Source of the DNA: a virus
DNA length: 64,000 nt
Reading direction: 5' to 3' (one strand)
IMG/VR virus record: IMGVR_UViG_3300031957_002648
Coordinates: 12,088-76,087 of that record
Positions 11,478 to 17,541 of this stretch are shown here, piece after piece; the stretch's first letter is position 1, and each line of letters starts with the position of its first letter. A program made the translations under genes and the position numbers. Below the pieces are notes generated by a model. It was not told where the DNA came from. It saw nothing but the letters and a program-made list of their open reading frames with translations, and did no database searches.

Positions 11478-13463
11478 CTATGTATAAGCTAGGATAACCC
11501 TTGATATACTATTTAACACACTTGCAGTATCATCTCTTTGTACCCTATACATGGTACTTCCCGGTGCTGGTGCTGGAGATTCCATTCTCGGAGTTCCAAT
11601 GACAACTGCGTTTCTTCCTCGTCTATCTTGAACTGTTCTTCTTATCTGAGGTCTTTGTCTTGATCTAGCTGCAACACTATCTTGAGATACCAAACTAGCT
11701 TGAGATCCTGGAGCTCCATGAGATACAGTTATATTATTTGTACCAATAATAACTGCTTCTCGACCATATCCAGATCTCCAACGCCACTGCCTTACGGCAA
11801 ATGGGAATGTTGTTTTTGATCCAACCTGAGATGGGAAAGTTTGAGGAGCTGTTGGGTGATGTTCTTGAATATCAACAGCAGCACTACTTCTTCTTCCATG
11901 AGCTTGCTGCTCTGCTGCAATTAAAGATTTGAGATCTTGATCTGATATACCTCTCCTAGCATCTCTTCCAATACTTCCAAAATGTACCCATGATCCTCTG
12001 GCAAACATTGCCTTAACTGCACGGAAAGCAACGTCCCTAATTTCTGCCAGTTGTGACGCAGACGGATTTCTTGGGCCATCAATATGAAAATGTGTCCCAT
12101 ATTCTGTTTCAGACGAATCACTAGATCCACCTTGAATAAATCCAGGTTCTCCCATTCTTACTGGTATTAAACCTGTTCCAGCAATTGGAGTTCTTCTCCG
12201 TACAGGTCTCTGTGTAGTTTGCCTCCGTGTAGTTTGCCTCTGTGTGGTTTCTGATGTGCCAGTATTGAATCGTCTAAGTTGTTCTTCACCACCTGTAAGT
12301 TTTATAAAGTTTATATACTCTTCCAATGAGATACTTCCATCTTTATTGCCATAGATCAAATCAATATTTTTATTTTCCACATATGCGGCGCTGGGTGATG
12401 AATATAATGCTGAATTCATATTCAGTTTACCAAGATCTGCTGGTCGTATGTTAGCCAGTGCAAGATTTCCCATCCCACCTGCAGTTCTAAAGAATCCAGC
12501 GTCTTGTAAATATTTTTCATGAATCGCTACTTGATCTGCCCTAGACAATCTTCTAAATTGTTCTTGAGTATATCCATATCTAACATCCCCAAATGATCCA
12601 CCAAACATTAGTTGGAATAATCCAGTTGCAGCATCATTCTCTGGATTGACTATGCTGGGGTCTAATCTAGACTCTGCATTATATAAAGACATCAATTCGG
12701 ATGGATTTACTTTTGCTCTCGCTGCTAGTTTCCTCACTGCCTCCTGAAACTCAACATCTTGTTCTATATCTTCAACTGGAGCAGATCCAGTTACATTTAA
12801 CAAAGAACCACCTGCTGTTGGATCATCAGGATCCTCAGATGCAAGATCCTCAGCAAGTTTCTTTACCTCAGCCGTCATCTCATCCCATTGCTTATTCAAA
12901 TCATCAAAACTTTTATTCATTTCATCAATTTTTTCTTGTATCTTTCCTTCACTATCCCAAAAATCAAGTCTTTTCCAGTTCTCTATAGTTTGAGTCACAA
13001 CAGCTGTCATACTATTAAATACTGTTCCCATTTGCATAACAAGTCTTTTGATAGATGCAAAGATCTTCTGTATTCCAGAGAAGAAAATCTTTACCTTTTT
13101 GATAAAAGAAGGGATAAATTTAATCAACCATCCAATACCAATCATCACCAAGGCATCAAGAATATTGCCCATAACACCTGCTTTGCCACTCACACCTTTC
13201 GGGTTCTTCTTAAATAATTCTGTTTTTGATTCTAATTTTGTCTCTCGATCAAATTTTCTTTGCTTATCTCTAGCAATTATTTTATCTCTTTTTTGTTTTT
13301 TTACTAACTGTTCTTCTCGCTTTTTTTTATCAAAATAAAATTTATATAATTTTGCTGTAGATTGCTTTACTAAAACTGTAGACTCAATGACATTGGCCAA
13401 GCTATTGCTAATCGAATCACTCGGTTTGGATCTTGGTAAAAACTTCTGAGTATTAAGAGTCAT
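11478..13463 (-). CDS. Tail/baseplate protein with lytic transglycosylase domain and M23-like peptidase region
   Basis: Coiled-coil N-terminus; AESRLDPS...ATGLFQ (SLT motifs); C-terminal THFHID...H-x-AVD...GYG...SH. Confidence 0.75.
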   Translation of the reverse strand: MTLNTQKFLPRSKPSDSISNSLANVIESTVLVKQSTAKLYKFYFDKKKREEQLVKKQKRDKIIARDKQRKFDRETKLESKTELFKKNPKGVSGKAGVMGNILDALVMIGIGWLIKFIPSFIKKVKIFFSGIQKIFASIKRLVMQMGTVFNSMTAVVTQTIENWKRLDFWDSEGKIQEKIDEMNKSFDDLNKQWDEMTAEVKKLAEDLASEDPDDPTAGGSLLNVTGSAPVEDIEQDVEFQEAVRKLAARAKVNPSELMSLYNAESRLDPSIVNPENDAATGLFQLMFGGSFGDVRYGYTQEQFRRLSRADQVAIHEKYLQDAGFFRTAGGMGNLALANIRPADLGKLNMNSALYSSPSAAYVENKNIDLIYGNKDGSISLEEYINFIKLTGGEEQLRRFNTGTSETTQRQTTRRQTTQRPVRRRTPIAGTGLIPVRMGEPGFIQGGSSDSSETEYGTHFHIDGPRNPSASQLAEIRDVAFRAVKAMFARGSWVHFGSIGRDARRGISDQDLKSLIAAEQQAHGRRSSAAVDIQEHHPTAPQTFPSQVGSKTTFPFAVRQWRWRSGYGREAVIIGTNNITVSHGAPGSQASLVSQDSVAARSRQRPQIRRTVQDRRGRNAVVIGTPRMESPAPAPGSTMYRVQRDDTASVLNSISRVILAYT

Positions 13464-13465
13464 TT

Positions 13466-15649
13466 TTAGAACAGAACATTATAGATCGATCTCGAAAGCA
13501 TTCTATAAGGATTTGAAGTATCATAAGTTTTCAAATTAGGAACCGTACTTCCACCACTAGGAGTGGGTGGTTGTATTGGTTGTGGTATCTGCATTGTACT
13601 TACATCAACCGTTACCTGTTGCCCCTCATATTCTGCATTTAATGCAACATTCCTTGTATTGGATGTTTCTCTTCCGTCCAACGAACCATCAAGGCCTGCA
13701 TAGGCTGAGTCAGGAAATACACTAGGAGTCATAGCGTCAAGTTGATCCTGAGTATACATATCAAGATTTTCCTGATCATAAGGAATTGTAGGAGTATCAC
13801 CATGAGCAGGCATCACTGGAGTCGTGGGAGTAACTGGTACTTGTTGCCGCCGAGCAATATCTGCAGGAGAACTTGTGTTATCATCTGCATCTCCTCCTCC
13901 TCTGGGAGGAGAAATTGGAGTTGTAGGTTCAACTGGTTGCTGAGTCTGCTCTTGATTTCTCTTCTCTTCTTCCGCTTCTTTCTGGAGGCGACGCCGACGG
14001 GATCTATAGATCCCGTGGAAGTCATTTTTAGTTATTGGATTTCCAGAAACATCGAAATATTTATCCTCAGGAAATCCAAACATGTTTCTTCCAGCTACTA
14101 CGGTTCCCACACCTGGGAATCTTACATTCTTCCCAGCACCAGAAGGGGTACTTCGTACCTCTTTGTGGGCTTCTGAAAGTTCAAGAAGTTGCTGCTGAGC
14201 ACTTTTTGGTGCTGGAGTTTCAACATTCCCTCCTTTTTCCGTAAGTTGAAATGTATCCTCATTGTTTACTGTTACTTTTTTGAGCAATCCTTTCGTCTGA
14301 CCAACTTGAAATAATGCATTTAAATTTGTAAGTCGATTCTTAGTTTTAAGTTCTTCATCGTCGGGTAAAAATGCACCAAACAGTCCTTTCGTCAGGTATT
14401 CTCCATAATTTTTATAATATCGTTTATTTACAGGATCGTAATAACCTCCGGCCGCTTTTAATTCAGCCTGTCGTTTTTCGTCTTCTTTTGCAGTTCTATC
14501 AAGTTGGATAGTAAGATTTTCTATTTTTTGCAATACTTCAAGGTCACTCAAATTAGAGAACTTTGCAATTGCAATTTGATCAAGAACAACTGGTTCTAAA
14601 AGTTCCGCCGTCATCAAGGCCAACATGGCGTAGCCTGCGCCACCACCCATACCCGGTCCACCTGATCGACCCACCCCAGGTGTTCCTGTCGAAACTCCTC
14701 TCCCAGTCCTAGTAAATCCTTGTCCAAATCTTTGAAATCTTTGCCGGAAAGTATTTCCACCTCTACCTTGGGTAACATTCGGTTTCGTTCTAAGAGGATT
14801 ACGGAACTGACCACTTTGAGTTACTCCTCTATTAAGGCCTCTAGGATTTCTACTTGCAGGTAGATTTCCCCCTGGGCCGGGTGGAGTTACTGGGCGTCGT
14901 AAGACACCAAATCTTTGTAGTATACGCCTACCAATAGCTTGAAGTGGTTTTAACACTAACCATTTAAAAGGTTTCCAAACTAACCACTTTGCAAGTTTTT
15001 TGCCAAATACTCCCAAACCAAAAATAATTGCGCCGAGACCTCCAGATGCCAGAGCAAGGGATGATCCCATAACTGCAAGACCTGCCGTTATTTCTCCCTT
15101 TAATTCTTCTAGTTTATCAAAATCACCTTCTCGTTCTGCTTTGAAATACTTGACAAACTTGTCAGTTAACCATCCAATTCCTAGCAAAAATAGAGCATTT
15201 TTGATTTTCTCGAAGGGATTTCCCAAGGCATTATTCACAGCCTGGAATGGTGCTTTCAGTGCTTTCTTTAATAAACCACCACCTTCTAAAAGTTTCTCTG
15301 ATGCCGAAGATTTTTTCTTCTCTTGTAATATACGAGCATCTTTTTGTTGTTTTTTATATTGTTTGCTCTTATTCTTTTGATCTTTTATTAATACAGTATA
15401 AATTTTGGTGATATTCGCAGAAACATCACGAAGATTATTATTGACTTCTTTTAATTGATCATTTACAATCTCATTATTAGCAGTCGGAACACTTTGAGTT
15501 ATCTTCCTGAAAGAGTCTGCAAAGCTTCCCTTTGGTTTAACAGGAATAGTTGTGGAATTAATTGGAGACGCAAAGCCAGCCGACCGTTTTTTCTCTTGGA
15601 AAAAACTACCAAAATTAAAACTGGGTCGTGCTGGACTTTTAGATACCAT
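13466..15649 (-). CDS. Tape-measure-like (gp29-like) protein
   Basis: Coiled coils, hydrophobic/Gly-rich helices and a low-complexity tail; directly downstream of gp26/gp51. Confidence 0.6.
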   Translation of the reverse strand: MVSKSPARPSFNFGSFFQEKKRSAGFASPINSTTIPVKPKGSFADSFRKITQSVPTANNEIVNDQLKEVNNNLRDVSANITKIYTVLIKDQKNKSKQYKKQQKDARILQEKKKSSASEKLLEGGGLLKKALKAPFQAVNNALGNPFEKIKNALFLLGIGWLTDKFVKYFKAEREGDFDKLEELKGEITAGLAVMGSSLALASGGLGAIIFGLGVFGKKLAKWLVWKPFKWLVLKPLQAIGRRILQRFGVLRRPVTPPGPGGNLPASRNPRGLNRGVTQSGQFRNPLRTKPNVTQGRGGNTFRQRFQRFGQGFTRTGRGVSTGTPGVGRSGGPGMGGGAGYAMLALMTAELLEPVVLDQIAIAKFSNLSDLEVLQKIENLTIQLDRTAKEDEKRQAELKAAGGYYDPVNKRYYKNYGEYLTKGLFGAFLPDDEELKTKNRLTNLNALFQVGQTKGLLKKVTVNNEDTFQLTEKGGNVETPAPKSAQQQLLELSEAHKEVRSTPSGAGKNVRFPGVGTVVAGRNMFGFPEDKYFDVSGNPITKNDFHGIYRSRRRRLQKEAEEEKRNQEQTQQPVEPTTPISPPRGGGDADDNTSSPADIARRQQVPVTPTTPVMPAHGDTPTIPYDQENLDMYTQDQLDAMTPSVFPDSAYAGLDGSLDGRETSNTRNVALNAEYEGQQVTVDVSTMQIPQPIQPPTPSGGSTVPNLKTYDTSNPYRMLSRSIYNVLF

Positions 15650-15833
15650 GTTTCTGCTTATACTTGAGTTCTTCCTGTTCTAAGAAATTAACTAAAAGAG
15701 AAACATAAACTTCTCTTTCCCACGGCATCATTTCTTCTAACTCTGTCAAGCTATATTTATGGTGCTGCATTAAAGCGAAATTAGTTTGATAATAGCTCCC
15801 CAACGACTCATGCGCTAGGGCTATGCGAAAAAA
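15639..15833 (-). CDS. gp51: gp51-like baseplate hub assembly protein (probably reached by -1 frameshift from gp26; alternative starts TTG 15803, ATG 15770)
   Basis: Missed by the track; frame reads FFRIALAHESLGSYYQTNFALMQHHKYSLTELEEMMPWEREVYVSLLVNFLEQEELKYKQKHGI*. Confidence 0.85.
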   Translation of the reverse strand, partial: FFRIALAHESLGSYYQTNFALMQHHKYSLTELEEMMPWEREVYVSLLVNFLEQEELKYKQKHGI

Positions 15834-16537
15834 CTTGCTAGACCTTCCAGAACATGCTCACTTTTCTTCTTTGTTTTAGGATTAGTTACCTTAATTGTAT
15901 GAGATAACTTTGGCATCGTTGAGAAAAACTTCTCGACCAATTGAAACTGTGATGATGTTAGATCACCAACGAATTCTTCTAGTTCTTCTTTCGTACAATC
16001 AGAGGCTGCCCATGATTCTTCTTCATTATAAACTTGCTCAATACACTGACCAATCATAGAAAATCCTTCATCAATTCCCAGATCTTCTCCTGTGAAATTA
16101 CTCTCAACAAACTGCTTGAGAGAGGGATATTTCATTCTAAGTTTTAGACCTCCTCCTAGATCAATGTCTCTACTATGATCTTCGGATTCTTTCACTTTAA
16201 TATCATCAATATTAATCTTGAGATCAACCTTAGTTTCTCCATCATCAGGACAAGTGACAGTTACTTCAATAACTTCACCCACAGACTTTCCACGAACATT
16301 CAAAAATAGATACTCGATATCAAAAGTAGATAAACTTTCGATATTAAAATCTTTGCTTATAATACATGCGGTTAAAACGTTCTTTAGAGCTTCCGTGATT
16401 TGTTTAATATCGTTGCTTTCAAGAGCTAAAATAAGAACCTTCTCTTCTTTTACTAAAAATGGACGATATTTAATTTTCTTTTTACTTGAGGGCAATTCCA
16501 ATTCATAGACTGGAGTCGTGGACTTTGGTAAAGGCAT
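15821..16537 (-). CDS. gp26: Baseplate hub assembly chaperone gp26
   Basis: MPLPK...YRPFLVKEEKVL...FDIEYLFLNVRGKSVGE...EGLASFF. Confidence 0.92.
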   Translation of the reverse strand: MPLPKSTTPVYELELPSSKKKIKYRPFLVKEEKVLILALESNDIKQITEALKNVLTACIISKDFNIESLSTFDIEYLFLNVRGKSVGEVIEVTVTCPDDGETKVDLKINIDDIKVKESEDHSRDIDLGGGLKLRMKYPSLKQFVESNFTGEDLGIDEGFSMIGQCIEQVYNEEESWAASDCTKEELEEFVGDLTSSQFQLVEKFFSTMPKLSHTIKVTNPKTKKKSEHVLEGLASFFA

Positions 16538-16566: not shown

Positions 16567-17541
16567 TTAGAAGAGCCGTTCCGGCCGGATATTATCAGTG
16601 CCAGTGGCTGGACGGTCGGCCGTAGTTCCGCTCTGCGCTTGATTGCCCTGTGTCTCAGGCGTTCCACCATTACTTACATCTCCTTTGACACCCCTACCTA
16701 ACCCTATAGAAGCATCAAAATTGACATTATACGCTGATTGATTGAAAATATTTTTGTCCCATGGAATTCCGTTTGTAAAAACTTCTTTTAAGTCTTCAGG
16801 ATAACCTATATTATCAAGTGTGAATGATTGGTCAAAATTGGTAAGTTTTAGAAGACGTTTTCGTGTTTCTTCATCTAGACTCCCAAAGTAGTCTGGACTA
16901 GAACCGTTATTACTAGAAGATGAAGTTTTATACGCACTTAGACCCGTTGTCGATGTTGCAAAGTATCTTTCATAGTTAAAAGATACATTTACACGCAGCA
17001 ATTGGGACTGTTCATATGATACTGGAGTTGCAGATACTTGTTTTGGAAATAGTCTTACAAAATTATATTGAATTCCGTTCGTATAATTTCTATCGAATTT
17101 TGCAATAGTTGGATAAATTTTATACCCATTATCTCCTTCTGGATATCTCATTCTGTAAAAATATCCAGGATTATTGGGAGCCTGTGTAGATCCTCCTCCA
17201 GATATATACTCCATCCAAGTCTCAAAAAACATGAGAACTTTATATTCACTATCACAATAAAATCCCATATCAATATTGGGAAACTGTCTAGTGTGAGCAT
17301 ATTGTTGCTGAACACCAGTAAAATTGCCCTCAATATTTGTTGTTGCTAAAGCAGAACCAGGTAGAGATGCATCATAGCACAACAGTCCAATTTTTGCAAT
17401 ATCTTCGGATGAAATTCCCCTAGAATTCAATGCAGTTTCTAATCCTCCCCTGAAACCAGTGAAATTAACCAAGTAATGAGAGGACAAGGCAACATCCATT
17501 AGTGTGCCTTTAAGATCAGATATGGTTGTTAGCTTTGTCAC
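16567..17541 (-). CDS. Tail-tube-initiator-like protein (gp54/gp19 family)
   Basis: LLCYDASLPG...FFETWMEYI...LFPKQVSATPVSY...VNVSFNYE tube-fold motifs. Confidence 0.7.
   Translation of the reverse strand: MTKLTTISDLKGTLMDVALSSHYLVNFTGFRGGLETALNSRGISSEDIAKIGLLCYDASLPGSALATTNIEGNFTGVQQQYAHTRQFPNIDMGFYCDSEYKVLMFFETWMEYISGGGSTQAPNNPGYFYRMRYPEGDNGYKIYPTIAKFDRNYTNGIQYNFVRLFPKQVSATPVSYEQSQLLRVNVSFNYERYFATSTTGLSAYKTSSSSNNGSSPDYFGSLDEETRKRLLKLTNFDQSFTLDNIGYPEDLKEVFTNGIPWDKNIFNQSAYNVNFDASIGLGRGVKGDVSNGGTPETQGNQAQSGTTADRPATGTDNIRPERLF

What the first reader, a model, noticed from the sequence alone, without database searches (positions are those of the whole stretch)
15639..15840. Probable programmed -1 frameshift fusing gp26 to gp51 (lambda G/GT-like) in a T4-like phage
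Seen: gp26 ends AGT TTT TTC GCA TAG, giving a T_TTT_TTC heptamer at 15833-15827. Six nt later is a hairpin CCCTAGCG-CATGAGT-CGTTGGGG, extendable by ATAG/CTAT. The -1 frame is open from the heptamer through the whole gp51 domain. gp51-like sequence (HESLGSYYQTNFALMQ) begins upstream of the first ATG, and no good RBS is visible. The tape-measure-like gene follows directly. Established: long-tailed phages make tail chaperones G and GT by a -1 shift just upstream of the tape-measure gene. Inference: cyanophage gp26 and gp51 are one frameshifted chaperone gene, usually annotated as two.
Basis: partly seen in the sequence, partly recalled or inferred. Interest (0 to 1): 0.8.

Follow-up and report, generated by a model that had tools for sequence, protein, structure and literature searches.

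The report
Frameshift joins cyanophage gp26 and gp51
This uncultured T4-like cyanophage very probably makes a short (238 aa) and a long (299 aa) form of one tail-assembly chaperone because some ribosomes slip back one base on a strictly conserved TTTTTTC; the signal is real, but it appears to have been published for T4-like phages in 2022.

Summary
gp26 (PF12322, 15821-16537, minus strand) ends AGT TTT TTC GCA TAG, and the gp51-like ORF lies in the -1 frame with no ATG before its conserved start.

Evidence for a programmed -1 frameshift:
- In 66 unique relatives the two Phe codons are always TTT then TTC, and the codon before always ends in T. Ten other invariant Phe columns mix TTT and TTC.
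- All 72 unique junctions carry TTTTTT[C/T/G] with the extension in the -1 frame. Nineteen of them, including this window and isolate S-T4, have no nearby ATG.
- T4-type gp51 (250 aa) is a gp26-like body plus this extension. A profile of the fused products aligns with it without a gap across the slip site.
- T4-type gp26, which sits beside a separate gene 51, ends TTC TTT with no heptamer.
- The first 95 residues of gp26 fold like the HK97 tail assembly chaperone (Z 7.4).

The window's hairpin is weak evidence: z is -1.4 and its nearest relatives lack it.

Novelty is low. Two papers cite Vladimirov, Gautam and Davidson (Virology 2022) for gp26/gp51 as the short and long chaperones of T4-like phages, with poly-T slip sites. 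This scan has also noted the same thing on other DNA (431 notes). The database records I inspected still list two genes.

The parts
15821..16537 (-). gp26 ORF, 238 aa. This is the short chaperone form (TAC-N) made by standard decoding, ending ...EGLASFFA*.
   Evidence: PF12322 T4_baseplate E 1.7e-75. phrog_150 'baseplate hub' E 2.9e-80. AlphaFold2 model with pLDDT 86.5.
15827..15833 (-). Slippery heptamer T_TTT_TTC in the 0 frame of gp26, one codon before the stop.
   Evidence: Read directly. Invariant in 66 of 66 unique relatives, whereas ten other invariant Phe columns mix TTT and TTC. Also present in Aeh1, S-CRM01, Yut2 and S-T4.
15821..15823 (-). 0-frame stop codon TAG of gp26.
   Evidence: The 0-frame stop follows the heptamer by one codon in 69 of 72 unique junctions and directly in 3.
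15639..15827 (-). -1 frame extension, CGC...TAA, 62 codons plus stop. It is the gp51-like C-terminal domain. Joined to gp26 residues 1-237 it gives a 299-aa long form (TAC-NC) with junction ...EGLASFF-RIALAHESL...
   Evidence: Translation. phrog_634 'baseplate hub assembly catalyst' E 6.1e-29 and phrog_150 profile positions 231-276. BLASTP to RB68 gp51 residues 200-244, E 2e-05. Gap-free profile alignment across the junction.
15792..15824 (-). Hairpin downstream of the heptamer. The core is CCCTAGCG/CGTTGGGG, extended by ATAG/CTAT. It is a possible but unproven stimulator.
   Evidence: MFE -12.6 kcal/mol, z -1.42. Not conserved in the nearest relatives. Other cyanophages have a different 11-bp hairpin at the same place.
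15843..15848 (-). GGAAGG, an imperfect Shine-Dalgarno-like element 9-10 nt upstream of the heptamer. It is a possible dnaX-type 5' stimulator.
   Evidence: 37 of 66 relatives have GGAGG exactly 10 nt upstream. The Glu codon there is GAG in 80%, against 31% pooled in the other Glu columns, though two of those columns are also high.
15801..15803 (-). First TTG in the -1 frame. It is the only conventional alternative start, and using it would drop the conserved RIALAHESL.
13466..15649 (-). 727-aa ORF directly downstream, a tape-measure candidate. Its ATG overlaps the end of the extension by 11 nt.
   Evidence: No Pfam or NCBIfam family. phrog_3405 and phrog_10925 are of unknown function. Atlas neighbours are viral hypothetical proteins and its model has pLDDT 0.51. 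No significant similarity to T4-type gp29.
16567..17541 (-). 324-aa tail-tube-like gene directly upstream.
   Evidence: PF23849 Phage_TTP_2 E 2.8e-16. phrog_45 'tail tube' E 2.1e-34.

Best explanation
gp26 and the short 'gp51' ORF are one tail/baseplate-hub assembly chaperone gene that is decoded in two ways. Most ribosomes read AGT TTT TTC GCA TAG and release the 238-aa gp26 (TAC-N). A minority slip back one base while the tRNA-Phe pair sits on UUU-UUC of U_UUU_UUC. They then read CGC AUA GCC... and make a 299-aa gp26-gp51 fusion (TAC-NC) that matches full-length T4 gp51.

Shown here: the signal, its conservation under synonymous change, the lack of a start codon for the extension, collinearity of the fusion with T4 gp51, and the chaperone-like fold of the N-terminal domain.

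Inferred: that slipping really occurs, how often it occurs, and the lambda G/GT-type role in which the shared part holds the tape-measure or hub protein and the extra domain recruits a tube or hub partner.
For: 1. The heptamer is in the correct phase, one codon before the stop.
2. Codon control on 66 unique relatives of 61-73% amino-acid identity: the heptamer Phe codons are TTT 66/66 and TTC 66/66. The preceding codon ends in T 66/66 even though the residue varies (TCT 26, AGT 24, others). Ten other invariant Phe columns show the minor codon in 6-29 of 66.
3. The extension is in the -1 frame in 81 of 81 loci. The same holds at 28-41% identity in S-CRM01, Stenotrophomonas phage Yut2, Aeromonas phage Aeh1, RSP15, C48C1, RL38J1 and IMG/VR loci L087-L101.
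4. Nineteen of 72 unique junctions have no ATG within 6 codons of the slip site, yet keep the peptide FFR(I/L/V)AL.H..L..YY..NF. In isolate S-T4 the first ATG is 34 codons in.
5. T4-type gp51 hits the gp26 family profile phrog_150 over its whole length (5e-87) and phrog_634 at its C-terminus. T4-type gp26 stops at profile position 235 of 282.
6. An HMM of the fused products aligns to RB68 gp51 residues 61-246 with no gap at the junction, and to RB68 gp26 up to its FFEL end.
7. Natural control: RB68 has two PF12322 genes, and its gp26 ends GAA TTC TTT GAG CTA TTG TAA with no heptamer. The complete genomes of S-T4, S-CRM01, Aeh1 and C48C1 have one PF12322 gene each, and each has the T-run.
8. 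gp26 residues 1-95 match the HK97 tail assembly chaperone 2ob9 (Z 7.4, 85 aligned residues), YqbN 3klu (Z 7.2) and 3fgx (Z 7.7). The next hit scores 4.9.
9. Citing papers state that poly-T slip signals in the TAC-N genes of T4-like phages are known, and that some T4-like phages instead carry a short and a long gene.
Against: - There is no expression data: no RNA run holds this DNA, and I have no proteomic or reporter evidence.
- The window's hairpin is not significant and is not conserved in its clade, so no clear 3' stimulator is established here.
- The 5' SD-like element is imperfect in the window (GGAAGG).
- 53 of 72 unique relatives do have an ATG just after the stop, so in those phages a free C-domain could also, or instead, be made.
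- Two relatives, Vibrio phage K413 and Dickeya phage PP35, lack a canonical heptamer.
- Conservation counts are not corrected for shared ancestry.
- The own record is only 38% complete, so a second, full-length gp51 gene elsewhere in this genome is not formally excluded.
Confidence: 0.86

Rival explanations
1. The two ORFs are separate genes. The small ORF is translated on its own, by re-initiation or coupling after the gp26 stop, from TTG 15803, ATG 15770 or a non-standard codon such as ATA or CTA. No fusion protein is made. The T-run is conserved for the Phe-Phe residues or as a U-rich translation enhancer.
For: 53 of 72 unique relatives have an ATG 2 nt after the gp26 stop. Database records list two genes, or only gp26, in all eleven records inspected. 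Vibrio phage K413 and Dickeya phage PP35 have an ATG and no canonical heptamer.
Against: In the window and 18 other unique junctions the conserved RIALAHESL...NF segment lies before any ATG. In S-T4 an ATG start would yield only a 44-aa fragment. Amino-acid conservation cannot explain TTT-TTC in 66 of 66 sequences, nor the invariant T in the preceding codon across four different codons. T4-type gp26 keeps Phe-Phe as TTC TTT where no extension follows. The segment is an internal part of T4 gp51, contiguous with the gp26-like body.
Confidence: 0.06
2. The same fusion protein is made, but by transcriptional slippage. RNA polymerase adds one extra U on the T6 run, so a fraction of mRNAs carry the two ORFs in one frame.
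For: A one-base insertion in the run gives exactly the same product...SFFRIAL. A few relatives have T7 runs (5 of 72). Rare single-ORF proteins of about 300 aa with junction FFRIALSH occur in metagenome gene catalogues, although these may be homopolymer sequencing errors.
Against: From my own knowledge, efficient bacterial slippage usually needs runs of about 8-9 or more; six T is short. The strict C at position 7 and the fixed X_XXY_YYZ phase fit ribosomal tandem slippage better than a run-length rule. DNA contigs show no length variants, but DNA cannot show RNA-level slippage.
Confidence: 0.06
3. The -1 ORF is a decaying remnant of a once separate gp51 gene and is no longer expressed.
For: It has no start codon and no annotation in some records, namely Aeh1 and DSL-LC03.
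Against: The frame stays open and the peptide is conserved from cyanophages to Aeromonas and Stenotrophomonas phages at 28-41% gp26 identity. It has strong profile matches.
Confidence: 0.01

Closest known systems
TAC-N / TAC-NC genes of T4-like phages (Vladimirov, Gautam and Davidson, Virology 2022, 566:9-15, PMID 34826709)
   Same: [quoted passage not shown] It describes a short and a long form, poly-T -1 slip signals in the TAC-N genes of some phages, and separate short and long genes in others. That is the arrangement found here.
   Different: I could not read the paper itself, so I do not know which phages, slip sites or controls it covers. I cannot say whether it reports the start-less lineages, the link between ATG and hairpin, or the GGAGG element seen here.
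Phage T4 gp26 (208 aa) and gp51 (249-250 aa), hub assembly chaperones (Leiman et al. 2010, PMC3004832)
   Same: They belong to the same family, PF12322. T4-type gp26 corresponds to the window's gp26, and T4-type gp51 corresponds to gp26 plus the -1 extension, collinear across the junction. Neither is part of the finished particle, per the review.
   Different: In T4-type phages the two forms are separate genes transcribed divergently, and gp26 has no heptamer (TTC TTT). Here one gene makes both forms.
Lambda gpG / gpGT and the conserved -1 frameshift of tail assembly chaperone genes (Xu, Hendrix and Duda 2004; review PMC5009743)
   Same: [quoted passage not shown] The N-terminal domain resembles the HK97 chaperone fold. 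The review states that this frameshift is conserved in long-tailed phages 'except T4'.
   Different: There is no sequence-level match to any Pfam chaperone family. gp26 is larger, at 238 aa with extra domains beyond the roughly 95-residue chaperone-like part. This is a contractile-tail phage, and binding partners have not been shown.
E. coli dnaX -1 frameshift signal (upstream Shine-Dalgarno-like element, A_AAA_AAG heptamer, downstream hairpin; from my own knowledge)
   Same: Many relatives combine GGAGG exactly 10 nt upstream, the heptamer, and a hairpin 5-8 nt downstream.
   Different: In the window the SD-like element is imperfect and the hairpin is not significant. In dnaX the shift shortens the product, whereas here it lengthens it.

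Membership tests
T4 gp26/gp51 family (Pfam PF12322 T4_baseplate; TAC-N/TAC-NC of T4-like phages) | The N-terminal body matches PF12322 above the gathering score. | tested here: met
   253.9 bits against a cut-off of 24.5, E 1.7e-75, covering residues 9-238.
T4 gp26/gp51 family (Pfam PF12322 T4_baseplate; TAC-N/TAC-NC of T4-like phages) | The extension is homologous to the C-terminal roughly 50 residues that T4 gp51 has and T4 gp26 lacks. | tested here: met
   phrog_634 E 6.1e-29 and phrog_150 profile positions 231-276 of 282. RB68 gp51 hits the same two profiles. BLASTP to gp51 residues 200-244, E 2e-05.
T4 gp26/gp51 family (Pfam PF12322 T4_baseplate; TAC-N/TAC-NC of T4-like phages) | The long form is collinear with full-length T4 gp51 across the junction. 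| tested here: met
   An HMM of 81 fused products aligns to RB68 gp51 residues 61-246 with no gap at FF|R.
T4 gp26/gp51 family (Pfam PF12322 T4_baseplate; TAC-N/TAC-NC of T4-like phages) | The genome has only one PF12322 gene, so the long form must come from this locus. | tested here: inconclusive
   There is one copy in the own record, but that record is 76 kb and 38% complete. Complete relatives S-T4, S-CRM01, Aeh1 and C48C1 have one copy each, and RB68 has two.
Tail assembly chaperone genes with conserved -1 frameshift (lambda G/GT type) | [quoted passage not shown] | tested here: met
   T_TTT_TTC at 15833-15827, with the -1 frame open from 15857 to 15639.
Tail assembly chaperone genes with conserved -1 frameshift (lambda G/GT type) | The heptamer and the frame relation are conserved among diverged homologues beyond what the protein sequence requires. 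| tested here: met
   66 of 66 for the heptamer against mixed codons at ten control Phe columns. 72 of 72 unique junctions carry TTTTTT[C/T/G].
Tail assembly chaperone genes with conserved -1 frameshift (lambda G/GT type) | The gene lies between a tail tube gene and the tape measure gene. | tested here: inconclusive
   The upstream gene is tube-like (PF23849). The downstream 727-aa ORF has no family and no similarity to T4 gp29.
Tail assembly chaperone genes with conserved -1 frameshift (lambda G/GT type) | The shared part has the chaperone fold. | tested here: met
   Residues 1-95 score Z 7.4 to HK97 TAC 2ob9 (85 of 104 residues, rmsd 3.9), Z 7.2 to YqbN 3klu and Z 7.7 to 3fgx, with the next hit at 4.9. 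Caveat: the tool warns that Z under 8 can be a common arrangement, and Foldseek against the PDB found nothing.
Tail assembly chaperone genes with conserved -1 frameshift (lambda G/GT type) | The sequence belongs to a curated chaperone family (the Pfam Phage_TAC families). | tested here: not met
   Residues 1-95 hit only PF12322, even at E up to 10. I therefore file it as working like G/GT, not as a sequence member of the lambda G family.
Tail assembly chaperone genes with conserved -1 frameshift (lambda G/GT type) | Two products are made at a fixed low ratio, and both are absent from virions. | not testable with these tools
   This needs protein-level data. No RNA run is listed for this DNA.

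The most novel reading that the evidence does not exclude
The signal may be more elaborate than a bare heptamer, and it may come in two states.

Most cyanomyoviruses keep an ATG for the C-domain inside a conserved 11-bp hairpin 5-8 nt after the heptamer. Many of them also have GGAGG exactly 10 nt upstream, giving a dnaX-like three-part signal. Lineages that lost the ATG, including this window, S-T4 and Aeh1, also lack the strong hairpin.

This would mean that the hairpin mainly hides the ATG, or balances three products (gp26, the fusion and a free C-domain). The start-less lineages would then rely on the frameshift alone.
Probability: 0.3. Interest if true: 0.4.

Novelty: already known. Interest (0 to 1): 0.25.

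Why it matters
The result corrects how these genomes are read. The 'gp51' of cyanophages is not a stand-alone 54-65-residue protein but the frameshift-encoded tail of gp26. That explains two puzzles in Sullivan et al. 2010 (PMC3037559): why cyanophage gp51 is only about 20% of the T4 length, and why Aeh1 seemed to lack gp51. It also removes T4-like phages as the stated exception to the tail-chaperone frameshift (PMC5009743).

Because a 2022 paper appears to have made this point, the remaining value is practical. None of the eleven database records I inspected lists the join, and several list a truncated or missing gp51.

Tried and rejected
Tools or sources that were unavailable:
I could not see the DNA behind the rare single-ORF proteins of about 300 aa, so I cannot tell real fusions from homopolymer errors.
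- No RNA holder is listed for this DNA, so expression and transcriptional slippage could not be examined.
- The 2022 Virology paper is not held. I know its content only through citing papers.
- PF28602, a family listed on the fused proteins, is not in the local Pfam copy.

Searches that returned nothing useful:
- Foldseek of the gp26 model against the PDB gave nothing. BFVD returned only gp26-family models.
- NCBIfam gave nothing for gp26, the extension or the 727-aa ORF.
- The search with the 727-aa ORF found no relatives in viral contigs, so I could not build an alignment for it.
- BLASTP of the 727-aa ORF against T4-type gp29, and of the 324-aa ORF against T4-type gp54, gave no significant match.
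- The tail tube family PF06841 (gp19) is not found in this 76-kb fragment.
- The IMG/VR search with Yut2 gp26 gave only two near-identical loci.

Not run:
- I did not run complex prediction. There was no alignment for the tape-measure candidate and no gp19 in the record, so a pass was unlikely and a failure would say nothing.

Considered and dropped:
- The window's hairpin as independent support (z -1.42).
- The 'no RBS' argument, because neighbouring genes also lack an SD sequence.
Full report
**Setting.** The window comes from a 76-kb fragment of an uncultured T4-like cyanomyovirus from seawater, estimated 38% complete. Five genes lie in a row on the minus strand:
- a 324-aa tail-tube-like gene (16567-17541; PF23849, phrog_45);
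- gp26 (15821-16537; PF12322, E 1.7e-75);
- a short gp51-like ORF;
- a 727-aa ORF without any family (13466-15649);
- a 661-aa ORF with an SLT domain.

**The observation.**
- gp26 ends AGT TTT TTC GCA TAG, which places T_TTT_TTC (15833-15827) in the X_XXY_YYZ phase.
- The -1 frame is open from 15857 to the stop at 15641-15639. From the heptamer it reads FFRIALAHESLGSYYQTNFALMQHHKYSLTELEEMMPWEREVYVSLL...
- The first TTG (15803) and first ATG (15770) of that frame lie inside the conserved domain.
- The heptamer as a bare string is no more frequent than chance (23 found, 24 expected).
- The hairpin at 15824-15792 folds at -12.6 kcal/mol, but 18 of 200 shuffles do as well.
- The frame break is not an assembly error. 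Contigs from three sequencing runs carry the same T6 run without indels, and every relative has it.

**Conservation of the slip site.** A search of IMG/VR with gp26 gave 80 loci of 61-73% amino-acid identity. In all 81 sequences, window included, the gp51-like ORF is in the -1 frame, and xxT TTT TTC lies one codon before the stop.

I then built a codon alignment of the 66 unique gp26 genes as an internal control.
- Ten other invariant Phe columns use both codons, with the minor codon in 6 to 29 of 66 sequences.
- The two heptamer columns are TTT in 66 of 66 and TTC in 66 of 66.
- The preceding codon ends in T in 66 of 66, although its residue varies (TCT 26, AGT 24, and others).
- Neighbouring synonymous sites are thoroughly mixed.

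These counts are not corrected for shared ancestry, but the contrast is clear.

**Distant relatives.** The pattern extends well beyond the cyanophage set.
- At 28-41% gp26 identity, T_TTT_TTC with a -1 extension is found in S-CRM01, Stenotrophomonas phage Yut2 and Aeromonas phage Aeh1.
- It is also found in the closer relatives S-T4 and DSL-LC03.
- T_TTT_TTT occurs in RSP15, C48C1 and three IMG/VR loci.
- T_TTT_TTG occurs in Rhizobium phage RL38J1.
- Over 72 unique junctions the heptamer is TTTTTTC in 66, TTTTTTT in 5 and TTTTTTG in 1.
- Two relatives are exceptions. Vibrio phage K413 and Dickeya phage PP35 lack a canonical heptamer and have an ATG for the small ORF.

**The extension has no start codon of its own in many lineages.**
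- In 53 of the 72 unique junctions an ATG sits 2 nt after the gp26 stop.
- In 19, from at least five separate lineages, that codon is CTA, CTG, CTC, CTT or similar. These include the window, its nearest relatives, S-T4, DSL-LC03, Aeh1 and C48C1.
- In those 19 the first ATG lies 11 to 35 codons after the slip site, yet the peptide FFR(I/L/V)AL.H..L..YY..NF is kept.
- In the cultured isolate S-T4 the annotated 'baseplate hub assembly catalyst' is a 44-aa fragment starting at that late ATG.
- In Aeh1 the extension is not annotated at all. This matches the remark in Sullivan et al. 2010 that gp51 is 'missing only in Aeh1' and that cyanophage gp51 is only about 20% of the usual length.

**What the fusion corresponds to.**
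- T4-type gp51 (RB68, 250 aa) matches the gp26 family profile phrog_150 over its whole length (E 5.1e-87). Its last 100 residues match the gp51 profile phrog_634.
- T4-type gp26 (208 aa) matches phrog_150 only up to position 235 of 282.
- The window's extension matches phrog_634 (6.1e-29) and positions 231-276 of phrog_150.
- By BLASTP the extension aligns from its second residue with gp51 residues 200-244.
- An HMM built from the conceptual fusion products aligns to RB68 gp51 residues 61-246 without a gap at the junction, and to RB68 gp26 right up to its ...GLKEFFEL end.

So T4 gp26 is the short form and T4 gp51 is the long form.

**A natural control.** In the T4-type genome the two genes are separate and divergently transcribed, and gp26 ends GAA TTC TTT GAG CTA TTG TAA with no heptamer. 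The complete genomes of S-T4, S-CRM01, Aeh1 and C48C1 each have a single PF12322 gene, whereas RB68 has two.

**Fold.**
- An AlphaFold2 model of gp26 (pLDDT 86.5) had no Foldseek match in the PDB.
- The exhaustive aligner placed three small phage chaperone-type proteins on top for residues 1-95: 3fgx (Z 7.7), the HK97 tail assembly chaperone 2ob9 (Z 7.4, 85 aligned residues) and YqbN 3klu (Z 7.2). The next hit scored 4.9.
- Z below 8 calls for caution, but the three hits agree and cover nearly the whole target chains.
- No Pfam chaperone family is matched by sequence.

**Stimulators.**
- In the relatives with an ATG, a conserved 11-bp hairpin starts 5-8 nt after the heptamer and encloses the ATG. 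It is 87% paired, and one pair covaries (U-A in 32 sequences, G-C in 15).
- Junctions with the ATG have a median fold energy of -14.8 kcal/mol, against -5.0 for those without. The Mann-Whitney p is 1e-8, not corrected for phylogeny.
- The window has its own, different hairpin, which is not significant.
- GGAGG lies exactly 10 nt upstream of the heptamer in 37 of 66 relatives. The Glu codon inside it is GAG in 80%, against 31% pooled in the other Glu columns, although two other columns are also high.
- The window has GGAAGG at that place.
- These are suggestive leads, not established parts of the signal.

**Mechanism.** The best reading is a programmed -1 ribosomal frameshift at U_UUU_UUC. It yields gp26 (238 aa) and a gp26-gp51 fusion (299 aa), with a G/GT-type division of labour in hub and tail assembly. 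The division of labour is inferred by analogy and from T4 genetics as reviewed. The rivals are independent initiation, transcriptional slippage on the T-run, and a dead remnant; each is weighed in its own section of this report.

**Novelty.**
- My first literature searches found no report.
- The 2016 recoding review says the G-T frameshift is conserved in long-tailed phages 'except T4'.
- A later search led to the PRFect paper. It cites Vladimirov, Gautam and Davidson (Virology 2022) for T4-like phages that carry a short and a long chaperone gene instead of frameshifting.
- A 2025 paper cites the same work for poly-T -1 slip signals in the TAC-N genes of T4-like phages.
- I could not read the 2022 paper itself.
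- This scan has noted the same thing on other DNA many times: 431 notes in at least 380 genomes. Of these, 54 also name the 2022 paper. Some earlier notes said that no publication exists, and the citing papers contradict that.

I therefore rate this as a sound, well-supported instance of something already described. It still has value for annotation, because none of the eleven database records I inspected lists a joined gene.

Noticed in passing
L006-L080 junctions (for example L009:2199-2262); window 15792-15824: A strong conserved hairpin after the heptamer goes together with an ATG for the small ORF. The median fold energy is -14.8 kcal/mol in 53 junctions with the ATG and -5.0 in 19 without. 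The hairpin encloses the ATG, so it may hide that start codon rather than, or as well as, stimulate slipping.
   Followed up: partly
window 15843-15848; the same position in L001-L080: GGAGG lies exactly 10 nt upstream of the heptamer in 37 of 66 relatives, and the Glu codon inside it is GAG in 80% against 31% pooled elsewhere. This is dnaX-like spacing. The window has the weaker GGAAGG.
   Followed up: partly
L102:2190-2400 (Aeromonas phage Aeh1, NC_005260.1): Aeh1 has an unannotated, start-less gp51-like extension in the -1 frame after GAT TTT TTC GAC TGA. The literature lists gp51 as missing in this phage.
   Followed up: yes
L108:6717-6899 (Synechococcus phage S-T4, NC_048049.1): The RefSeq 'baseplate hub assembly catalyst' of S-T4 is a 44-aa fragment starting at an internal ATG. 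The conserved domain begins at the slip site 34 codons earlier.
   Followed up: yes
P0003, P0004, P0008, P0010, P0012 (metagenome proteins): There are rare single-ORF proteins of 295-300 aa that carry PF12322 plus PF28602, several with the junction FFRIALSH predicted for the shifted product. Each is a singleton or near-singleton. They could be real in-frame fusions or homopolymer sequencing errors. PF28602 is not in the local Pfam copy.
   Followed up: partly
L103:2040-2300 (Vibrio phage K413); L106:2200-2450 (Dickeya phage PP35): These two relatives have the C-domain ORF in the -1 frame with an ATG overlapping the stop but no canonical heptamer (A CTT TTC and A ATT TTC). The PP35 ORF is unannotated. 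They may use coupling, or a different slip site.
   Followed up: no
window 11478-15649: Two long ORFs (727 and 661 aa) follow the chaperone gene. Both are rich in Gly and Arg, have low-complexity stretches and contain hydrophobic glycine-zipper-like segments. The second has an SLT lytic transglycosylase domain and a weak tape-measure profile hit (phrog_991, E 0.005). Which of them is the length ruler is not settled.
   Followed up: partly
window 15639-15649: The ATG of the 727-aa ORF lies 11 nt inside the end of the -1 extension, so ribosomes finishing the long form terminate just past the next gene's start.
   Followed up: no
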